Source: Escherichia phage vB_EcoS-22664B1. From it: a stretch of 45,019 nt of DNA. The stretch lies in the sequence record MZ234008.1; one strand, 5' to 3'. This document shows, piece by piece, positions 104-42,396 of the stretch. Positions within the stretch are counted from its first letter, which is position 1. Each line of letters opens with the position of its first letter. The notes under the pieces are model-generated. The model saw only the letters and a program-made list of their open reading frames with translations. It was not told the origin of the DNA and did not search any database. The translations under genes and the position numbers were made by a program.

Positions 104-131
104 GGTTGCACACCAACATGAGGACTGAACA

Positions 132-437
132 ATGAGAGCATTAATCTGGAAATACTCACGGGCAATAGCGAAGCTGGACGAAGCGAAAAACACAAACGGC
201 AACGTAGACTATGCGCGCCAGTTTGCGGCACGGGCACACCAACACATCATGAGTGCGCTCGACGATATGGACGCCAGCATGGATGACCTGGGTCCGCTGC
301 GTAAGGCTATCCATGAATACGCGCTGGCATTCTCCCGTGAGCGCCTGGCCTATCGCTTCGGTATTGGCGATAAGGCAGTGACAAACGTCGCCCGGATTAA
401 AGCACAGCGCGAACTATTCGCCCAGCTTGCGAAATAA
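132..437 (+). CDS. hypothetical protein (101 aa)
   Basis: Intact ORF with GAGGA RBS-like sequence upstream of ATG; downstream of putative promoter at 75-103. No recognisable motif. Confidence 0.55.
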   Translation: MRALIWKYSRAIAKLDEAKNTNGNVDYARQFAARAHQHIMSALDDMDASMDDLGPLRKAIHEYALAFSRERLAYRFGIGDKAVTNVARIKAQRELFAQLAK

Positions 438-446
438 GGGGCCAAA

Positions 447-716
447 ATGGGCCGTAGACGAGCTAATCAGCTTTCTTGGCATATTCCCCTGCATTGCATA
501 CGAATATGGGCTAAGAACGCGATTGAGGGCGATTCCGTGTACTGGTGCTATCGCGACGATGTGAAGCCACTTACGCAGACTCGCTACTTGCACCAGTTCG
601 CAGCACAACATGGATTCTATGTGCGGACTTCCTTGCAACCAATGGGAATACGTATTACATTACGCCGGAAGCCCGCCGTTGAGCGGGTAGGCAAACACTG
701 GAGACTGCGCAAATGA
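447..716 (+). CDS. hypothetical protein, paralog family member 1 (C-terminal ERVGKHWRLRK)
   Basis: ORF with AAGGGG RBS-like sequence; C-terminus resembles C-terminus of next gene (YTRVGRNATWRLRK); stop overlaps next start (ATGA). Confidence 0.45.
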   Translation: MGRRRANQLSWHIPLHCIRIWAKNAIEGDSVYWCYRDDVKPLTQTRYLHQFAAQHGFYVRTSLQPMGIRITLRRKPAVERVGKHWRLRK

Positions 717-1057
717 TTCGAGTAACCGCACGCCACGAACAATCGGGGGCCACTTACGATGTAATCGACGTTCGCGGCGCGTTCGTCATCTTCGGACGGG
801 GTGACGACCGGCTGGCGCTGCCGATCGGTATGCTGAGCACATACGACTATTTCAAGCATAACGTCCGGTGTGGCGATGTGCTGCGCGATAAGCGCACCGG
901 TGAGCTATGGACGGTGGCGAGTATTTGGGTGAAAGATAAACGGCAGCACACGTTATTGCTCGCCCGCCCGGATTGCAAACAGCAAACTATTAACACTATT
1001 GGCCTGGTGGACTACACCCGCGTAGGCCGTAACGCTACCTGGAGACTGAGAAAATGA
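713..1057 (+). CDS. hypothetical protein, paralog family member 2
   Basis: Shares GDVLRD-R-G-LW-V and RVGR motifs with 1054..1578; ATGA overlap with both neighbours. Confidence 0.55.
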   Translation: MIRVTARHEQSGATYDVIDVRGAFVIFGRGDDRLALPIGMLSTYDYFKHNVRCGDVLRDKRTGELWTVASIWVKDKRQHTLLLARPDCKQQTINTIGLVDYTRVGRNATWRLRK

Positions 1058-1578
1058 AATTACTATTCCGCCGTAAATCAGATGGCTATATCCTGAAGCC
1101 GATCCAGACCTTATCGAACTGGGTACGCCTCCACCACGTTGCAAGCGATAAAGTCTGGTGGGCGACTAAGGCAAAGCTGCCGGAGTACTACGAAATCCTC
1201 ACACACGATATCGAGCGCGGCGATGTGCTGCGGGATATTCGCGACGGGCAATTGTGGGTCGTGGAATACGTGGGTCGGCACGGCCTGCGTATGAAGTCCT
1301 GCAAGGATGTCGTAGCGGGCAACATGGTCACGGGCATGACGTACTTCGGGCTAATCCACTACGAACGAGTGGGCCGCAAATCCCAGCCAGCGTATGCGAC
1401 CTACGACGCCCGCCAGGTGCAGGCCAGACTTAACAAGGCCACGCATGAGATAATTAATCACGTTGATGCCGTGACGAATGCGCAGCGCATGGCCCGCGAA
1501 TACGGCGTAGGATTCATCCGTGTCGAGCAAGACGGCAGCATGTCCGCTATAGACCCGCGCTCGGTAATACTGAAATGA
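1054..1578 (+). CDS. hypothetical protein, paralog family member 3
   Basis: Contains GDVLRDIRDGQLWVV and HYERVGRK segments paralogous to 713..1057. Confidence 0.55.
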   Translation: MKLLFRRKSDGYILKPIQTLSNWVRLHHVASDKVWWATKAKLPEYYEILTHDIERGDVLRDIRDGQLWVVEYVGRHGLRMKSCKDVVAGNMVTGMTYFGLIHYERVGRKSQPAYATYDARQVQARLNKATHEIINHVDAVTNAQRMAREYGVGFIRVEQDGSMSAIDPRSVILK

Positions 1579-1718
1579 GCGCGACTATCCGTGATATGCT
1601 TATGCATAACCGCTTTGAGATAGGCGGGCGAGTATTCTGCAATTACTTCGTGGCGCGTGCTTGGGCGCGCCATATCGGAAAACCAGTAGGGGCAATACGA
1701 TGCTACACGATTTGATAT
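1575..1718 (+). CDS. small hypothetical ORF (47 aa)
   Basis: ATG overlapping stop of preceding gene; short, overlaps next gene start; weak support. Confidence 0.25.
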
Positions 1719-1987
1719 TTTGGTTTGGTTTGGGGTGTGCGTCACTCTTTGTTGTGGTGCTGGCGCTGTTGGTATGGCTATTCCTGGTATGGCCCGCGGT
1801 GGAAGCTGCCAGCATTACCCGCATGACGTTCCAGATATACAAGCGCCGTGGCATAACGGAACACCCGACCAGGTTGCGCATGTGGTGGCTATGGTATCTG
1901 GATATGCTTGGAGGTCGGAGGTTTGAGGCCGTCCGGTCATCCGGGTGGGAATGGAAAGGCGTAGGCAAGTGGTCCATTTTCGATTAA
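1700..1987 (+). CDS. small membrane protein
   Basis: Start MLHDL with AGGGG RBS-like sequence 8 nt upstream; long hydrophobic stretch FWFGLGCASLFVVVLALLVWLFLVW; followed by terminator. Confidence 0.5.
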   Translation: MLHDLIFWFGLGCASLFVVVLALLVWLFLVWPAVEAASITRMTFQIYKRRGITEHPTRLRMWWLWYLDMLGGRRFEAVRSSGWEWKGVGKWSIFD

Positions 1988-2004: not shown

Positions 2005-2039
2005 AGTCCCAGTGAGCTAAAACTTACTGGGACTTTTTT
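2005..2039 (+). terminator. rho-independent terminator (agtcccagt...actgggact + T-run)
   Basis: 9-bp inverted repeat followed by TTTTTT directly read from sequence. Confidence 0.6.
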
Positions 2040-2330: not shown

Positions 2331-2566
2331 TTATCGCCATCCTGTTATTAGTGATCGGGGCTTCGTCGCTGTATAACGTATACGCGCCATCCGTCCAGGA
2401 TGGCATTTGCGGACGGGTGCTCTACCTGCTTACAGCAATGACCTGTATTATTGGCCTGATGCAAACGGGGGACGTATCGAATACAGTCTGGTCCGTGCTA
2501 ATCTGGCTATTCGCATTACGCACACTGCGTAATGCTGTTTTAAATGGGGTAAAACATGCGATTTAG
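2327..2566 (+). CDS. holin/antiholin-like small membrane protein
   Basis: 79 aa, two hydrophobic helices, ATGA overlap with previous gene and overlap with endolysin start. Confidence 0.5.
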   Translation: MIIAILLLVIGASSLYNVYAPSVQDGICGRVLYLLTAMTCIIGLMQTGDVSNTVWSVLIWLFALRTLRNAVLNGVKHAI

Positions 2567-3047
2567 TGACAACGGTCTAAGATTTACGGCAGCGTGGGAG
2601 TCGTTCAGCCCAGTGCCGTATTTCGCGACTAAGAAGGAGCAGGCCCGCGGCTTGTACACCTGGGGCTACGGTCATACTGGCACTAATCCGCCACAGAGCA
2701 TTACCCGCGCGGAAGCGCTGGAGCTACTCAAGCGTGATGTGGCGTATGCCGAGAACTGGGTGAACAAGTACGCACACCCGAGCATCAATCAGGCGCAATT
2801 CGACGCGCTGGTGGATCTGGTAATCAATGCCGGTCAAGGTCCGATCGTACCGGATAACATTGCCAATGACTTCGATGACGCGGTGCGCCTGGGTGATTGG
2901 GCCAAAGTCCGTGCTACGCTGCCGCAGTTCCGCAAGCAAGGCGGTGAAGTGCTCAAGGGCCTGGTACGTCGTGCAATCGGCAGACAGGCGCTATTCGATG
3001 GTAAGCAGTGGGACGTTGCCGAGAAAATCGGTCGTAACGCGGCATAA
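2556..3047 (+). CDS. endolysin, lysozyme-like (GH24/T4-lysozyme-type muramidase)
   Basis: Motif ...WESF...GLYTWGYGHTG... resembles phage lysozyme catalytic region (E ... GYGHTG); located after holin candidates. Confidence 0.75.
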   Translation: MRFSDNGLRFTAAWESFSPVPYFATKKEQARGLYTWGYGHTGTNPPQSITRAEALELLKRDVAYAENWVNKYAHPSINQAQFDALVDLVINAGQGPIVPDNIANDFDDAVRLGDWAKVRATLPQFRKQGGEVLKGLVRRAIGRQALFDGKQWDVAEKIGRNAA

Positions 3048-3470: not shown

Positions 3471-4668
3471 ATGCACCCGCAAACTAAAATTACCGACGAG
3501 CAATTGATCGCTGAATTGCAATCTGGCACTACCTCGAAAGATATTGCGAAGAAATACGGCATTGCCCTTCGAAATGTCTATATGCGCAAAGCCCGCCTGT
3601 CGAAGAAAGGCATTGGTCACGGTAACGATGCCGTAATCCGTAAGCGCGTTGCCGATGGCTTCGGCGTTAAGCGTGTATCAGCCCTGGTGCGCGGCAATGG
3701 CGAAGAGGTCATGTCCTGGGTCATCACCGAGCAAGACAAGGAGCGCCAGCTTGAAGCAATGCGCGCCGTTGTCGAGGGCATGAATAGCGAAATCACACCG
3801 GCAGCACCAGTGAGCGCTCCGCCAGTCCCGATCCAGGCGCTTGACCTGCTTAACCTGTATACCGTGTCGGACTTCCACCTGGGAATGTTGGCGTGGGGCG
3901 AGGAGACTGGCGAGGACTGGGATATGGCAATCGCTGAAGACCTGTTCTACCGCTGGTTTGTCGAAGCCTTCGCCCGCGCACCGGACGCTGGAAGACCTGT
4001 TCTACCGCTGGTTTGTCGAAGCCTTCGCCCGCGCACCGGACGCTGGCACTGCCGTAATCAATATTCTCGGTGATATGGCGCATTTTGACAGCCTCGACGC
4101 CGTCACGCCAGCCAGTGGTCACGTACTGGACGCAGATACCCGCTACCAGAAACTGGTCCGCTACATGATTCGCATGGTGCGCAACGTGGTTGAACTGGCG
4201 CTGCAAAAACACCATAAGGTCAAACTGTTAATCGTCCAGGGTAATCATGATGAGTCCGGTATGATTTGGCTGGCTGAGATGTTCAATACCCTGTACGAGA
4301 ACGAGCCGCGCGTTGATGTGGACACGTCCCCGGACGTTTACAAAATGGTGCAGCACGGTAAAACAACGCTGTTCTTCCACCACGGACACAAAGCACGCTT
4401 TGACGCCATCGAACCGGTCATGATTTCTAAATTCAGACAGGCTTTCGGGTCCAGTGAGTACAGCTACGCGCACGTGGGCCACTTGCACCACCAGAAGATT
4501 GTTGAATCCCGCAACATGATTGTTGAACAGCACCGGACCCTTGCCGCGAAAGACGCATATGCGAGCCGCGGCGGTTGGATGTCTGGTCGTAGTGCTAACG
4601 TCATCACCTATAGCGCCAACTACGGCGAAGTAGCGCGCTTAACCATTAGCCCGGAAATGTTGAAATGA
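3471..4668 (+). pseudogene. HTH domain + calcineurin-like metallophosphoesterase gene, split by a 55-bp tandem duplication (frameshift)
   Basis: N-terminal HTH-like segment; metallophosphoesterase motifs SDFHLG, GDMAHFD, GNHDE, HHGH, GHLHH. ORFs 3471..4073 and 3841..4668 are the same gene in two frames; removing one 55-bp copy (3936-3990 or 3991-4045) restores one ORF of about 380 aa. Confidence 0.6.
3936..4045. repeat. perfect tandem duplication, 2 x 55 bp
   Basis: Unit gaagacctgttctaccgctggtttgtcgaagccttcgcccgcgcaccggacgctg occurs twice in tandem; cgctg microhomology at the junction. Confidence 0.9.
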
Positions 4669-42035: not shown

Positions 42036-42066
42036 CGTTGGTCATTAACCAATAGGAGACAGAACA

Positions 42067-42396
42067 ATGCATATCAACGACGCAATCGAAATGTTAACTA
42101 AGACCGTTAGTTGTGAGACAAGCCGGTCCTGGGCTTATACCGATGCCGTTGGTGCGGCGTTATTTGAAATCGAACGCCTGCGCAGTGTCGAAAAAGAATT
42201 GCGCGCCAAGCTGGAATTACTCAACGGTACGGCAGCAAGCAAGCTGCAAAAACACAATGAAGAAATGGAAGAATACAAAAAGCAGGTTATCCGTTTACGC
42301 GACGAGGGCAAGTCCTGGGCGATGATTGCCGAGTTGACCGGAATTAATCAGAGCACCGTGCGCTCCTGGGTACGCAATAATAAAACTTCTAAGTAA
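42067..42396 (+). CDS. HTH DNA-binding protein (putative transcriptional regulator)
   Basis: C-terminal helix-turn-helix-like segment SWAMIAELTGINQSTVRSWVRN; coiled-coil-like middle; AGGAGA RBS-like sequence. Confidence 0.55.
   Translation: MHINDAIEMLTKTVSCETSRSWAYTDAVGAALFEIERLRSVEKELRAKLELLNGTAASKLQKHNEEMEEYKKQVIRLRDEGKSWAMIAELTGINQSTVRSWVRNNKTSK

What the first reader, a model, noticed from the sequence alone, without database searches (positions are those of the whole stretch)
447..1578. Tandem array of three paralogous small genes at the left end
Three consecutive genes with ATGA-overlapping boundaries share sequence blocks: GDVLRD(K/I)R.G.LW.V in genes 2 and 3, and a C-terminal (Y/V).RVG(R/K)....(WRLRK) block in all three. 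Tandem paralog expansion in an early region is typical of fast-evolving host-interaction or anti-defence families. I do not recognise the family.
Basis: seen in the sequence. Interest (0 to 1): 0.5.

Follow-up and report, generated by a model that had tools for sequence, protein, structure and literature searches.

The report
Two phage paralogues, not three
In this E. coli Dhillonvirus, two of three back-to-back small genes share one ~70-residue domain; the third resembles them only in an 11-residue tail, partly encoded by a reused ribosome-binding junction, so this is an ordinary variable accessory-gene slot of unknown function.

Summary
The window is a complete Dhillonvirus genome (Escherichia phage vB_EcoS-22664B1, near-identical to 101114B2). 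The three ATGA-coupled genes exist as described: G1 447-716, G2 713-1057, G3 1054-1578.

G2 and G3 are true paralogues, but only over about 70 residues, the GDVLRD domain plus an RVGR tail (BLASTP 6e-9; G3-family HMM 1e-13).

G1 is not a detectable paralogue. Profile-profile probability is below 1%, and its predicted fold is alpha/beta whereas G3's model is beta-rich before residue 110. G1 resembles G2 only in its last 11 residues. The last five (WRLRK) are encoded by the Shine-Dalgarno/spacer/ATGA junction of the next gene. That junction recurs at other gene starts and is read in another frame (EETEQ*) in the alternative slot gene.

G1 and G3 are core genes (156 and 155 phage records). G2 is a rare insert (6 records) in a hypervariable slot that is elsewhere empty or holds unrelated mini-genes.

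G2 is under purifying selection (pN/pS 0.13-0.27), so it is not fast-evolving. One metagenomic contig carries a G2::G3 hybrid, crossed over inside the 14-nt GDVLRD repeat.

Function is unknown and no known family matches. Weak hints point to RNA polymerase. Ordinary; low interest.

The parts
447..716 (+). G1, 89 aa, very basic (pI 11.2, net +13). Core Dhillonvirus gene (SO-1 gp51 family, phrog_12533). Not a paralogue of G2/G3.
698..716 (+). Junction copy 1, CTGGAGACTGCGCAAATGA. It holds the Shine-Dalgarno GGAG, the spacer and the ATGA stop/start overlap. It encodes G1's last residues WRLRK* and G2's start.
   Evidence: Direct repeat D2. Pattern search gives 2 hits vs 0.24 expected. The same junction lies at the G1 stop in all 17 related loci examined.
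713..1057 (+). G2, 114 aa, basic. Rare accessory gene in the variable slot between G1 and G3. Residues 42-113 are paralogous to G3 residues 44-~115. Residues 1-41 have no detectable relatives outside the G2 family.
   Evidence: Full-length copies occur in only 6 phage records, i.e. 4 phages. Only 5 clusters in 5.8 billion proteins. pN/pS 0.13-0.27.
872..917 (+). DNA repeat D1 copy 1, encoding GDVLRDKRTGELWTV. Its first 14 nt, GGCGATGTGCTGCG, are identical to copy 2.
   Evidence: The crossover of the natural G2::G3 hybrid maps inside the 14-nt identity.
1039..1057 (+). Junction copy 2, CTGGAGACTGAGAAAATGA. It encodes G2's WRLRK* and G3's start.
   Evidence: The same junction precedes the G3 start in 15 of the 16 loci that have a separate G3 start.
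1054..1578 (+). G3, 174 aa. Core Dhillonvirus gene (SO-1 gp52 family, phrog_10243). It consists of an N-terminal beta-barrel-like part (residues 1-50), the GDVLRD domain plus RVGR tail (residues ~44-110), a length-variable linker (deleted here) and a C-terminal helix-hairpin domain (residues 121-174, phrog_27442).
   Evidence: tblastn finds it in 155 phage records. The profile search of 1.84 billion representatives returns only 24 hits, nearly all from this locus type.
1219..1264 (+). DNA repeat D1 copy 2, encoding GDVLRDIRDGQLWVV.
1414..1575 (+). G3 C-terminal domain. It is separable: it occurs alone or behind other N-termini elsewhere. It contains the helix with weak similarity to the E. coli RNA polymerase omega N-terminus.
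   Evidence: phrog_27442 E=3.6e-20. Stand-alone relatives P0149, P0162, P0163. In phage BF9 only the C-domain matches. Omega hit E=0.39 vs PDB; hhalign probability 42%.
132..437 (+). G0 (context), 101 aa, phrog_9839. Its start uses the same type of junction (GAGGACTGAACAATGA).
1575..1987 (+). G4 (1575-1715, ATGA-coupled to G3) and G5 (about 1700-1987, membrane protein). These are the last genes of the transcription unit.
2005..2034 (+). Intrinsic-terminator-like hairpin plus T-run. It separates the small-gene block from the holin/endolysin genes.
   Evidence: Annotated as a terminator in WF5505.

Best explanation
The locus is the tail end of a translationally coupled string of small basic proteins in a Dhillonvirus. 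The string runs G0-G1-G2-G3-G4-G5, lies downstream of the helicase-primase gene, and ends at a terminator just before the holin genes.

Shown:
- G1 and G3 are core genes of the genus.
- Between them lies an insertion slot whose content differs between phages. It can be empty, hold an acidic 44-50 aa gene (the commonest state), hold a basic 50 aa gene, hold two small genes, or, in this phage and three other phages (four phages, six database records), hold G2.
- G2 is a diverged copy (about 30% identity) of one ~70-residue domain of G3, the GDVLRD domain plus RVGR tail, behind its own unrelated 41-residue N-terminus. It lacks G3's linker and C-terminal domain.
- G2 is an intact gene under purifying selection.
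- G2 can recombine with G3 through the 14-nt identical stretch of the GDVLRD repeat, which produces a hybrid gene.
- The apparent third paralogue, G1, is unrelated in sequence profile and in predicted fold.
- G1 and G2 share the C-terminal WRLRK because every gene placed upstream of another gene in this slot ends in the same DNA junction, GGAGAC-N8/9-ATGA. That junction is the ribosome-binding site and overlapping start codon of the downstream gene.

Inferred:
- The junction gives translational coupling.
- Because one copy flanks each side of every insert, the junction is also the likely homology used to swap cassettes.
- G2 and G3 are non-structural proteins that bind nucleic acid or protein, made together with the replication genes. 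G2 probably acts as a variant or competitor of G3's shared domain.
- The biochemical function is not established.
For: Identity of the phage.

G2-G3 homology. It is limited to G2 residues 42-113.

G1 is unrelated. Predicted folds differ.

Slot variability: the 12 loci compared plus four more share the order G0-G1-[slot]-G3-G4-G5-holins-lysin. Slot length is 0, about 130-150, or about 313-341 nt.

Counts in 50,697 phage records: G1 156, G3 155, acidic slot gene 105, basic slot gene 25, full-length G2 6.

Junction: it is present at the G1 stop in 17 of 17 loci and at the G3 start in 15 of 16. It is read as WRL(S/R)K* in G1, G2 and the basic slot gene, but as EETEQ* in the acidic slot gene. In the window the same type of junction lies at four real gene starts (132, 713, 1054, 42067), against 0.5 motif hits expected by chance; a fifth hit at 3924 is internal to the exonuclease gene.

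Purifying selection.

Natural hybrid: P0166 / L013 is 100% G2-like up to GGCGATGTGCTGCG and G3-like afterwards.

Modularity of G3: linker indels give orthologues of 174-214 aa. Stand-alone C-domains exist.

Terminator.

Prior notice: annotators of WF5505 already recorded G2 as 'weakly similar to gp52 [Sodalis phage SO1]'.
Against: - The 4-residue RVG(K/R) that precedes the junction in G1 is not explained by the junction. It aligns without gaps to ERVGRKYSLRDR of G3 orthologues. This is marginal (E about 0.03 for one comparison) and could be a real remnant.
- The G3 model is of modest quality (pLDDT 62.5, and 44-68 across the shared domain), so fold comparisons for the shared domain are weak.
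- Translational coupling and cassette exchange at the junction are inferred from sequence only.
- No expression or functional data for these genes turned up in the two literature searches and four papers I read.
- The hybrid comes from a short-read metagenome assembly and has not been verified independently.
Confidence: 0.8

Rival explanations
1. G1, G2 and G3 are three members of one tandemly expanded, fast-evolving family of host-interaction or anti-defence proteins.
For: G2-G3 homology. All three carry x-RVG-(K/R), and G1 and G2 end in WRLRK. The slot varies between phages as accessory or anti-defence loci often do. Dhillonviruses are known to carry small lineage-specific anti-defence and trigger proteins elsewhere in the genome (PMC11846954, PMC11564622).
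Against: G1 shows no profile similarity. Its predicted topology differs. WRLRK is encoded by the reused ribosome-binding junction. pN/pS is 0.13-0.37. G1 and G3 are near-universal and conserved. G2 is rare and old, not a recent expansion. No PADLOC or anti-defence family hit.
Confidence: 0.08
2. The shared tail, E-R-V-G-(K/R)-x-(W/Y)-x-L-R-(K/D), is a real functional peptide. It could be a basic beta-hairpin that docks on a common partner, or a remnant of a common 3' gene end spread by recombination at the junction. On this view G1 shares a short module with G2/G3 without sharing a fold.
For: G1's VERVGKHWRLRK aligns without gaps to YERVGRKYSLRDR of most G3 orthologues and to G2's tail. HMM E=0.027 for one comparison. 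In the G1 model, residues 78-81 and 84-87 form a hairpin.
Against: The score is about 0 bits, within the range expected by chance after looking for a match. The second half of the motif in G1 and G2 is constrained by the junction DNA anyway. The other slot genes that use the same junction lack RVG.
Confidence: 0.15
3. G3, and through the shared domain G2, target the host RNA polymerase. On this view an SH3/Tudor-like part binds RNA polymerase, and the C-terminal helix imitates the N-terminal beta-prime-binding helix of the omega subunit.
Against: The PDB E-value is 0.39-0.85, which is not significant. Pfam's omega/Rpb6 model does not match any of 25 family members. This window's own G3 has NHVD instead of NRFD, and distant C-domain relatives lack the motif. 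SH3-like barrels match many unrelated binders with the same Z. The model confidence is low.
Confidence: 0.07
4. G2 is a decaying remnant of a duplication and has no function.
For: It is rare. It can be lost by recombination with G3.
Against: The ORF is intact in every carrier. pN/pS is 0.13-0.27 at pS 0.20-0.25. It keeps the coupled junctions on both sides.
Confidence: 0.03

Closest known systems
Sodalis phage SO-1 gp52 family (PHROG 10243; C-terminal domain PHROG 27442), uncharacterised
   Same: G3 matches the whole profile (E=3.4e-80). G2 matches its central part (E=2.5e-11). Same genus, same position between gp51 and the lysis genes.
   Different: G2 has only the central domain plus tail, with a different N-terminus and no C-terminal domain. 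No function is known for the family.
Sodalis phage SO-1 gp51 family (PHROG 12533), uncharacterised
   Same: G1 is a full-length member (E=9.7e-58).
   Different: It is unrelated to the gp52 family apart from the 11-residue tail.
Mosaic gene-boundary junctions and 'moron'-type insertion slots in tailed phages. This is general knowledge of lambdoid and other siphophage mosaicism, not tested against a specific paper here.
   Same: A short conserved sequence at gene boundaries flanks alternative small cassettes. The slot is empty in some relatives and filled with unrelated genes in others.
   Different: Here the inserts have no promoter or terminator of their own. They are spliced into a translationally coupled operon, and the conserved boundary is the ribosome-binding site with an ATGA overlap.
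SH3 / Tudor / KOW-like small beta-barrels (e.g. CarD N-terminal domain, UvrD C-terminal domain, Spt5 KOW)
   Different: No sequence-family match. The match probably concerns G3 residues 1-50, the only confident part of the model, which is not the domain shared with G2. The fold is too common to imply a function.
Known small Dhillonvirus proteins with a defence-related role: anti-Tmn (ORF35 of phage SMS22) and Ksap1 (74 aa, trigger of KpAvs2)
   Same: Small, genus-restricted proteins of non-structural regions (PMC11846954, PMC11564622).
   Different: Ksap1 lies between a methyltransferase gene and a phosphatase gene. Anti-Tmn is helical at its N-terminus and is absent from phage SM_A8, which does carry a G3 homologue. 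Neither description fits G1, G2 or G3. I had no sequences for a direct comparison.

Membership tests
PHROG 10243 (SO-1 gp52-like) | Significant match to the family profile over most of its length | tested here: met
   G3: E=3.4e-80, residues 1-174 on profile positions 1-184. G2: partial only, E=2.5e-11, residues 42-112 on profile positions 44-109. My own HMM gives 1e-13.
PHROG 10243 (SO-1 gp52-like) | G1 belongs to the same family | tested here: not met
   No hit for G1. hhalign probability <1%. HMM E=0.027 on an 11-residue tail only. Different predicted secondary-structure order.
PHROG 12533 (SO-1 gp51-like) | Full-length profile match | tested here: met
   G1: E=9.7e-58, residues 1-89 on profile positions 1-89.
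SH3/Tudor/KOW-like beta-barrel fold | Five-stranded small barrel that superposes on known members with a convincing score | tested here: inconclusive
RNA polymerase omega / Rpb6 (PF01192) | Significant match to the family model or to omega sequences | tested here: not met
   Pfam gives no hit at E<=10 for 25 members. PDB profile search gives E=0.39-0.85. Pairwise hhalign gives probability 42%, P=2.7e-4. This is a lead only.
HNH endonuclease (the annotation given to the G3 orthologue in phage UDS3lw) | HNH / beta-beta-alpha-metal motif detectable by a profile | tested here: not met
   No Pfam or NCBIfam HNH hit for G3 or for 24 relatives. The annotation appears.
Known anti-phage-defence or counter-defence protein families | Match to a PADLOC model, or to a described Dhillonvirus anti-defence or trigger protein | tested here: not met
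   PADLOC gives 0 hits for G0-G5. PADLOC models defence systems, not counter-defence proteins, so this is only a partial test. The published descriptions of anti-Tmn and Ksap1 do not fit in position or size. No sequence comparison was possible.
Tandem paralogue array (three members) | All members pairwise or profile-related beyond short peptides | tested here: not met
   Only G2-G3 are related. G1-G2 gives E=0.055 and G1-G3 is not significant.
Alba / IF3-C-like alpha/beta fold (considered for G1) | b-a-b-a-b-b topology with a convincing structural match to members | tested here: inconclusive

The most novel reading that the evidence does not exclude
G3 may be a phage factor that docks on the host RNA polymerase. 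On this reading it combines a Tudor/SH3-like barrel with a C-terminal helix copied from, or converged on, the beta-prime-binding N-terminal helix of the E. coli omega subunit. G2 would then be a truncated paralogue that modulates or competes with it. The conserved GGAGAC...ATGA junction would serve as a built-in exchange site for mini-gene cassettes next to it.
Probability: 0.06. Interest if true: 0.7.

Novelty: new member of a known kind. Interest (0 to 1): 0.22.

Why it matters
The practical value is mostly as a caution. Short C-terminal 'motifs' shared by neighbouring, translationally coupled phage genes can be the footprint of a reused ribosome-binding junction rather than evidence of homology.

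The locus also gives a clean small example of how a siphophage operon takes in and swaps mini-genes at one fixed junction. It further shows two paralogous domains recombining through 14 nt of identity.

G2, the acidic slot gene and the basic slot gene are reasonable candidates for host-range or counter-defence screens in Dhillonviruses, a genus used in the BASEL collection and in therapy-oriented work. Nothing here shows such a role.

Tried and rejected
1. G1 as a remote paralogue. BLASTP, hhalign in global and local modes, HMMs in both directions and structure prediction were all negative except for the tail.

2. G2's N-terminus (residues 1-45) as a homologue of G3's first 45 residues, or of the basic 50-aa slot gene that also starts MIRV. 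Neither is significant: E=1.5 by BLASTP and E=0.06-0.08 by HMM, below shuffled controls. The only support is a fold-level match between the G3 model and a 50-aa protein of phage 011D5 (TM 0.83 normalised to the target, E=0.039). That protein is probably this slot gene.

3. Finding relatives outside Dhillonvirus. The word-indexed searches, the exhaustive profile search of 1.84 billion representatives (24 hits) and BFVD found only this locus type, plus two distant stand-alone C-domains.

4. Known families. Pfam, NCBIfam, PADLOC and PDB sequences gave nothing significant.

5. Literature. Anti-Tmn, Ksap1 and the escape mutants of SECphi4/18 concern other genes. The EE09 proteomics paper does not mention these CDSs.

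6. The first IMG/VR scan with G3 alone found nothing. The scan with an alignment gave 10 loci.

7. The 'HNH endonuclease' label on a G3 orthologue was rejected.
Full report
**What the window is.** Megablast of positions 1-2600 gives 100% identity to Escherichia phage vB_EcoS-101114B2 (MZ234014), and 81.2-98.2% identity in the other listed rows among the 156 matching records, nearly all Dhillonviruses of E. coli. The G3 protein is on record from phage vB_EcoS-22664B1 on a contig of 45,019 bp, which is the length of the window. The window is therefore a complete Dhillonvirus genome. Its 'left end' is a matter of linearisation. In phage Bas83 the same block lies at 40.2-41.9 kb, after the helicase-primase gene and before the holins and endolysin.

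**Anatomy.** The + strand carries these genes:
- G0, 132-437
- G1, 447-716 (89 aa)
- G2, 713-1057 (114 aa)
- G3, 1054-1578 (174 aa)
- G4, 1575-1715
- G5, about 1700-1987

G1/G2, G2/G3 and G3/G4 overlap as ATGA. A strong terminator-like hairpin with a T-run lies at 2005-2034 (annotated as a terminator in WF5505). It separates this block from the holins (2040-2566) and the endolysin (2556-3047, Pfam Phage_lysozyme 1.5e-21). All of G0-G5 are basic, and G1 is extreme (pI 11.2, net +13).

**Checking the observation.** The GDVLRD block is real and is part of a longer similarity.
- BLASTP of G2 vs G3 gives E=6e-9, 21 of 65 residues identical, no gaps.
- The PHROG 10243 profile, which G3 matches end to end at 3.4e-80, matches G2 residues 42-112 at 2.5e-11.
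- An HMM built from 121 G3-family sequences matches G2 residues 42-113 at 1e-13.
- At DNA level the block is a 46-nt direct repeat with 72% identity, 872-917 / 1219-1264.

The similarity does not extend to the N-termini. G2 residues 1-45 against a G3 1-45 HMM score -0.6 bits, below many shuffled controls. The paralogy is therefore one domain of about 70 residues plus a short basic tail.

G1 is different. Results against G2 and G3 were:
- BLASTP vs G2: E=0.055, tail only.
- BLASTP vs G3: not significant.
- hhalign of the G1 family vs the G3 family: probability below 1%.
- G3 HMM: aligns only VERVGKHWRLR, at 0.3 bits.

**The C-terminal block.** G1 ends ...VERVGKHWRLRK* and G2 ends ...YTRVGRNATWRLRK*. 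The window's G3 has YERVGRK at residues 103-109 followed by SQPAY. Most orthologues read YERVGRKYSLRDRQPHER..., and the G3 linker is an indel hot spot, with orthologues of 174 to 214 aa.

The last five codons of G1 and G2 are a 19-nt DNA repeat, CTGGAGACTG(C/A)G(C/A)AAATGA. I compared 17 related loci (10 from IMG/VR, 4 from GenBank phage records, 3 from metagenome assemblies). GGAGAC-N8/9-ATG sits at the G1 stop in all 17. It sits again directly at the G3 start in 15 of the 16 that have a separate G3 start.

In phages whose slot holds the acidic mini-gene, that gene ends GAG GAG ACT GAG CAA TGA (EETEQ*). G1 ends TGG AGA CTG AGC AAA TGA (WRLSK*). The DNA is the same but the reading frame differs, and one extra A keeps the ATGA overlap. 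In the window, the same type of junction also precedes G0 (start at 132) and the ORF starting at 42067. That makes four real gene starts, against 0.5 motif hits expected in shuffles; a fifth hit, at 3924, is internal to the exonuclease gene.

WRLRK is therefore what the ribosome-binding site (GGAG), the spacer and the overlapping start of the next gene encode in one frame. It is not evidence of protein homology. Only the four residues RVG(K/R) remain unexplained. Statistically they are marginal.

**The slot between G1 and G3.** Gene order G0-G1-[slot]-G3-G4-G5-holin-holin-lysin is conserved. The slot holds one of the following:
- nothing, with G1 overlapping G3 directly (L003, L009)
- an acidic 44-50 aa gene (phrog_15977, pI 4)
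- a basic 50-aa gene starting MIRV
- two small genes (L004, L012)
- G2

Across 50,697 phage records tblastn finds G1 in 156, G3 in 155, the acidic gene in 105, the basic 50-aa gene in 25, and full-length G2 in 6. Those 6 records represent four phages: 101114B2, WFI, WF5505 and CHD2B1. In 5.8 billion protein clusters G2 has five clusters.

G2 is 29-38% identical to the G3 orthologues it detectably matches in BLASTP, including the most divergent ones, whereas G3 orthologues are 59-93% identical to the window's G3 in my 25-sequence alignment, falling to 38-48% in a few divergent forms. G2 is thus an old or imported copy, not a recent tandem duplication. The annotators of WF5505 had already noted it as 'weakly similar to gp52'.

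**Is G2 a working gene, and is it fast-evolving?** Two metagenomic carriers (L018, L019) have G2 in the same place, flanked by intact G1 and G3. Pairwise Nei-Gojobori estimates give pN/pS of 0.13-0.27 for G2 at pS 0.20-0.25, and 0.17-0.37 for the first 110 codons of G3. This is purifying selection, so the data give no support for rapid adaptive evolution.

**Recombination between the paralogues.** Protein P0166 (190 aa, Logan contig from ERR13244735) consists of G2 residues 1-59 joined to G3 from residue 61 onwards. At DNA level it is identical to G2 up to GGCGATGTGCTGCG and G3-like after it. The 14-nt identity is far shorter than typical short-read assembly k-mers (my understanding; the assembler's setting was not checked), so an assembly artefact is unlikely. 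It has not been verified independently.

**Wider relatives and domain structure.** A profile of the G3 family plus G2, searched against 1.84 billion representatives, returned 24 hits. Nearly all are variants, fragments or fusions from this same locus type. Two are distant stand-alone C-terminal domains (P0162, P0163), which match phrog_27442. P0149 and phage BF9 carry the C-domain without the N-terminal part. G3 is therefore modular: an N-terminal part, the shared domain plus tail, a variable linker, and the C-domain.

**Structure.** The AlphaFold2 model of G3 is mediocre (pLDDT 62.5).
- Residues 1-50 (pLDDT 74-83) form five strands and a short helix.
- The shared domain (residues 51-110) is beta-rich but low in confidence.
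- The C-domain is a long helix plus a hairpin.

**Function.** Nothing in Pfam, NCBIfam, PADLOC or PDB sequences matches significantly. The known small Dhillonvirus proteins with a defence-related role, anti-Tmn and Ksap1, are other genes by position, size and distribution. No expression or functional data for these genes turned up in the two literature searches and four papers I read.

By inference, these are non-structural, basic binding proteins. They are co-transcribed and translationally coupled with the genes that follow the helicase-primase.

One weak lead concerns RNA polymerase. The profile search against PDB sequences returns only the E. coli RNA polymerase omega subunit at the top (E=0.39-0.85), with 14 of 29 residues identical over omega residues 4-32. 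Pairwise hhalign gives probability 42% and P=2.7e-4. However, Pfam's omega model is silent, and the window's own G3 has NHVD where most orthologues have NRFD. I give this reading about 6%.

**Verdict.** The locus is a normal accessory-gene slot in a known phage genus, holding a rare domain paralogue of a core ORFan gene. Interest is low. The main lesson is methodological.

Noticed in passing
window 3936-4045 (ORFs 3471-4073 and 3841-4668): A perfect 55-bp tandem duplication (3936-3990 = 3991-4045) lies inside the gene annotated 'DNA repair exonuclease' in Bas83. That gene is a single 380-aa ORF in 101114B2 and Bas83. Because 55 is not a multiple of 3, the gene is split into two overlapping ORFs here. 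This is either a genuine inactivating mutation or a sequencing/assembly artefact.
   Followed up: partly
locus L015 (PQ658967, UDS3lw_00004, 832-1404): The G3 orthologue is annotated 'HNH endonuclease'. No HNH or any other Pfam/NCBIfam domain is detectable in G3 or 24 relatives, so this is probably a propagated mis-annotation.
   Followed up: yes
window 1414-1575 (G3 residues 121-174): The helix of the G3 C-domain resembles the N-terminal helix of the E. coli RNA polymerase omega subunit (NRFD..V..A.R.AR...VG in most orthologues). PDB E=0.39, hhalign probability 42%. Not significant, but it is the only thing at the top of the list.
   Followed up: partly
loci L001, L005, L006, L008, L011, L015-L017 (slot between G1 and G3): The commonest slot occupant is a 44-50 aa strongly acidic protein (pI about 4, phrog_15977...GIATVCDGD.KT.DEIEETEQ), present in 105 phage records. 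Its function is unknown, and its small size and charge make it a candidate for a mimic- or inhibitor-type protein.
   Followed up: partly
proteins P0141-P0160 (metagenome representatives of the G3-G5 block): Many database 'proteins' are in-frame or out-of-frame fusions of G3 fragments with G5 or with the slot gene (e.g. P0148, P0156, P0157, P0144, P0146). They appear to be natural deletion variants, which suggests that parts of the G3-G5 block are dispensable, at least in mixed populations.
   Followed up: no
window 117-134, 700-715, 1041-1056, 42055-42069: One ribosome-binding-site-plus-spacer sequence, (GGAGAC or GAGGAC)-N8/9-ATG, lies at four real gene starts of the same + strand gene string, against 0.5 motif hits expected by chance; a fifth hit at 3924 is internal to the exonuclease gene. 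Related phages also use it in front of the gene annotated 'transposase' in Bas83.
   Followed up: yes
loci L018 (2225-2501) and L019 (742-1018): An intact G1 ORF is present in both metagenomic contigs but is absent from their lists of called genes. Small basic genes of this block are under-called in public assemblies.
   Followed up: yes
phage BF9 (MW822006, 27044-27501, minus strand): BF9 appears to lack the N-terminal two-thirds of G3. Only the C-domain matches (75% identity over residues 123-174), about 150 nt from the basic 50-aa slot gene, and nothing is annotated there.
   Followed up: no
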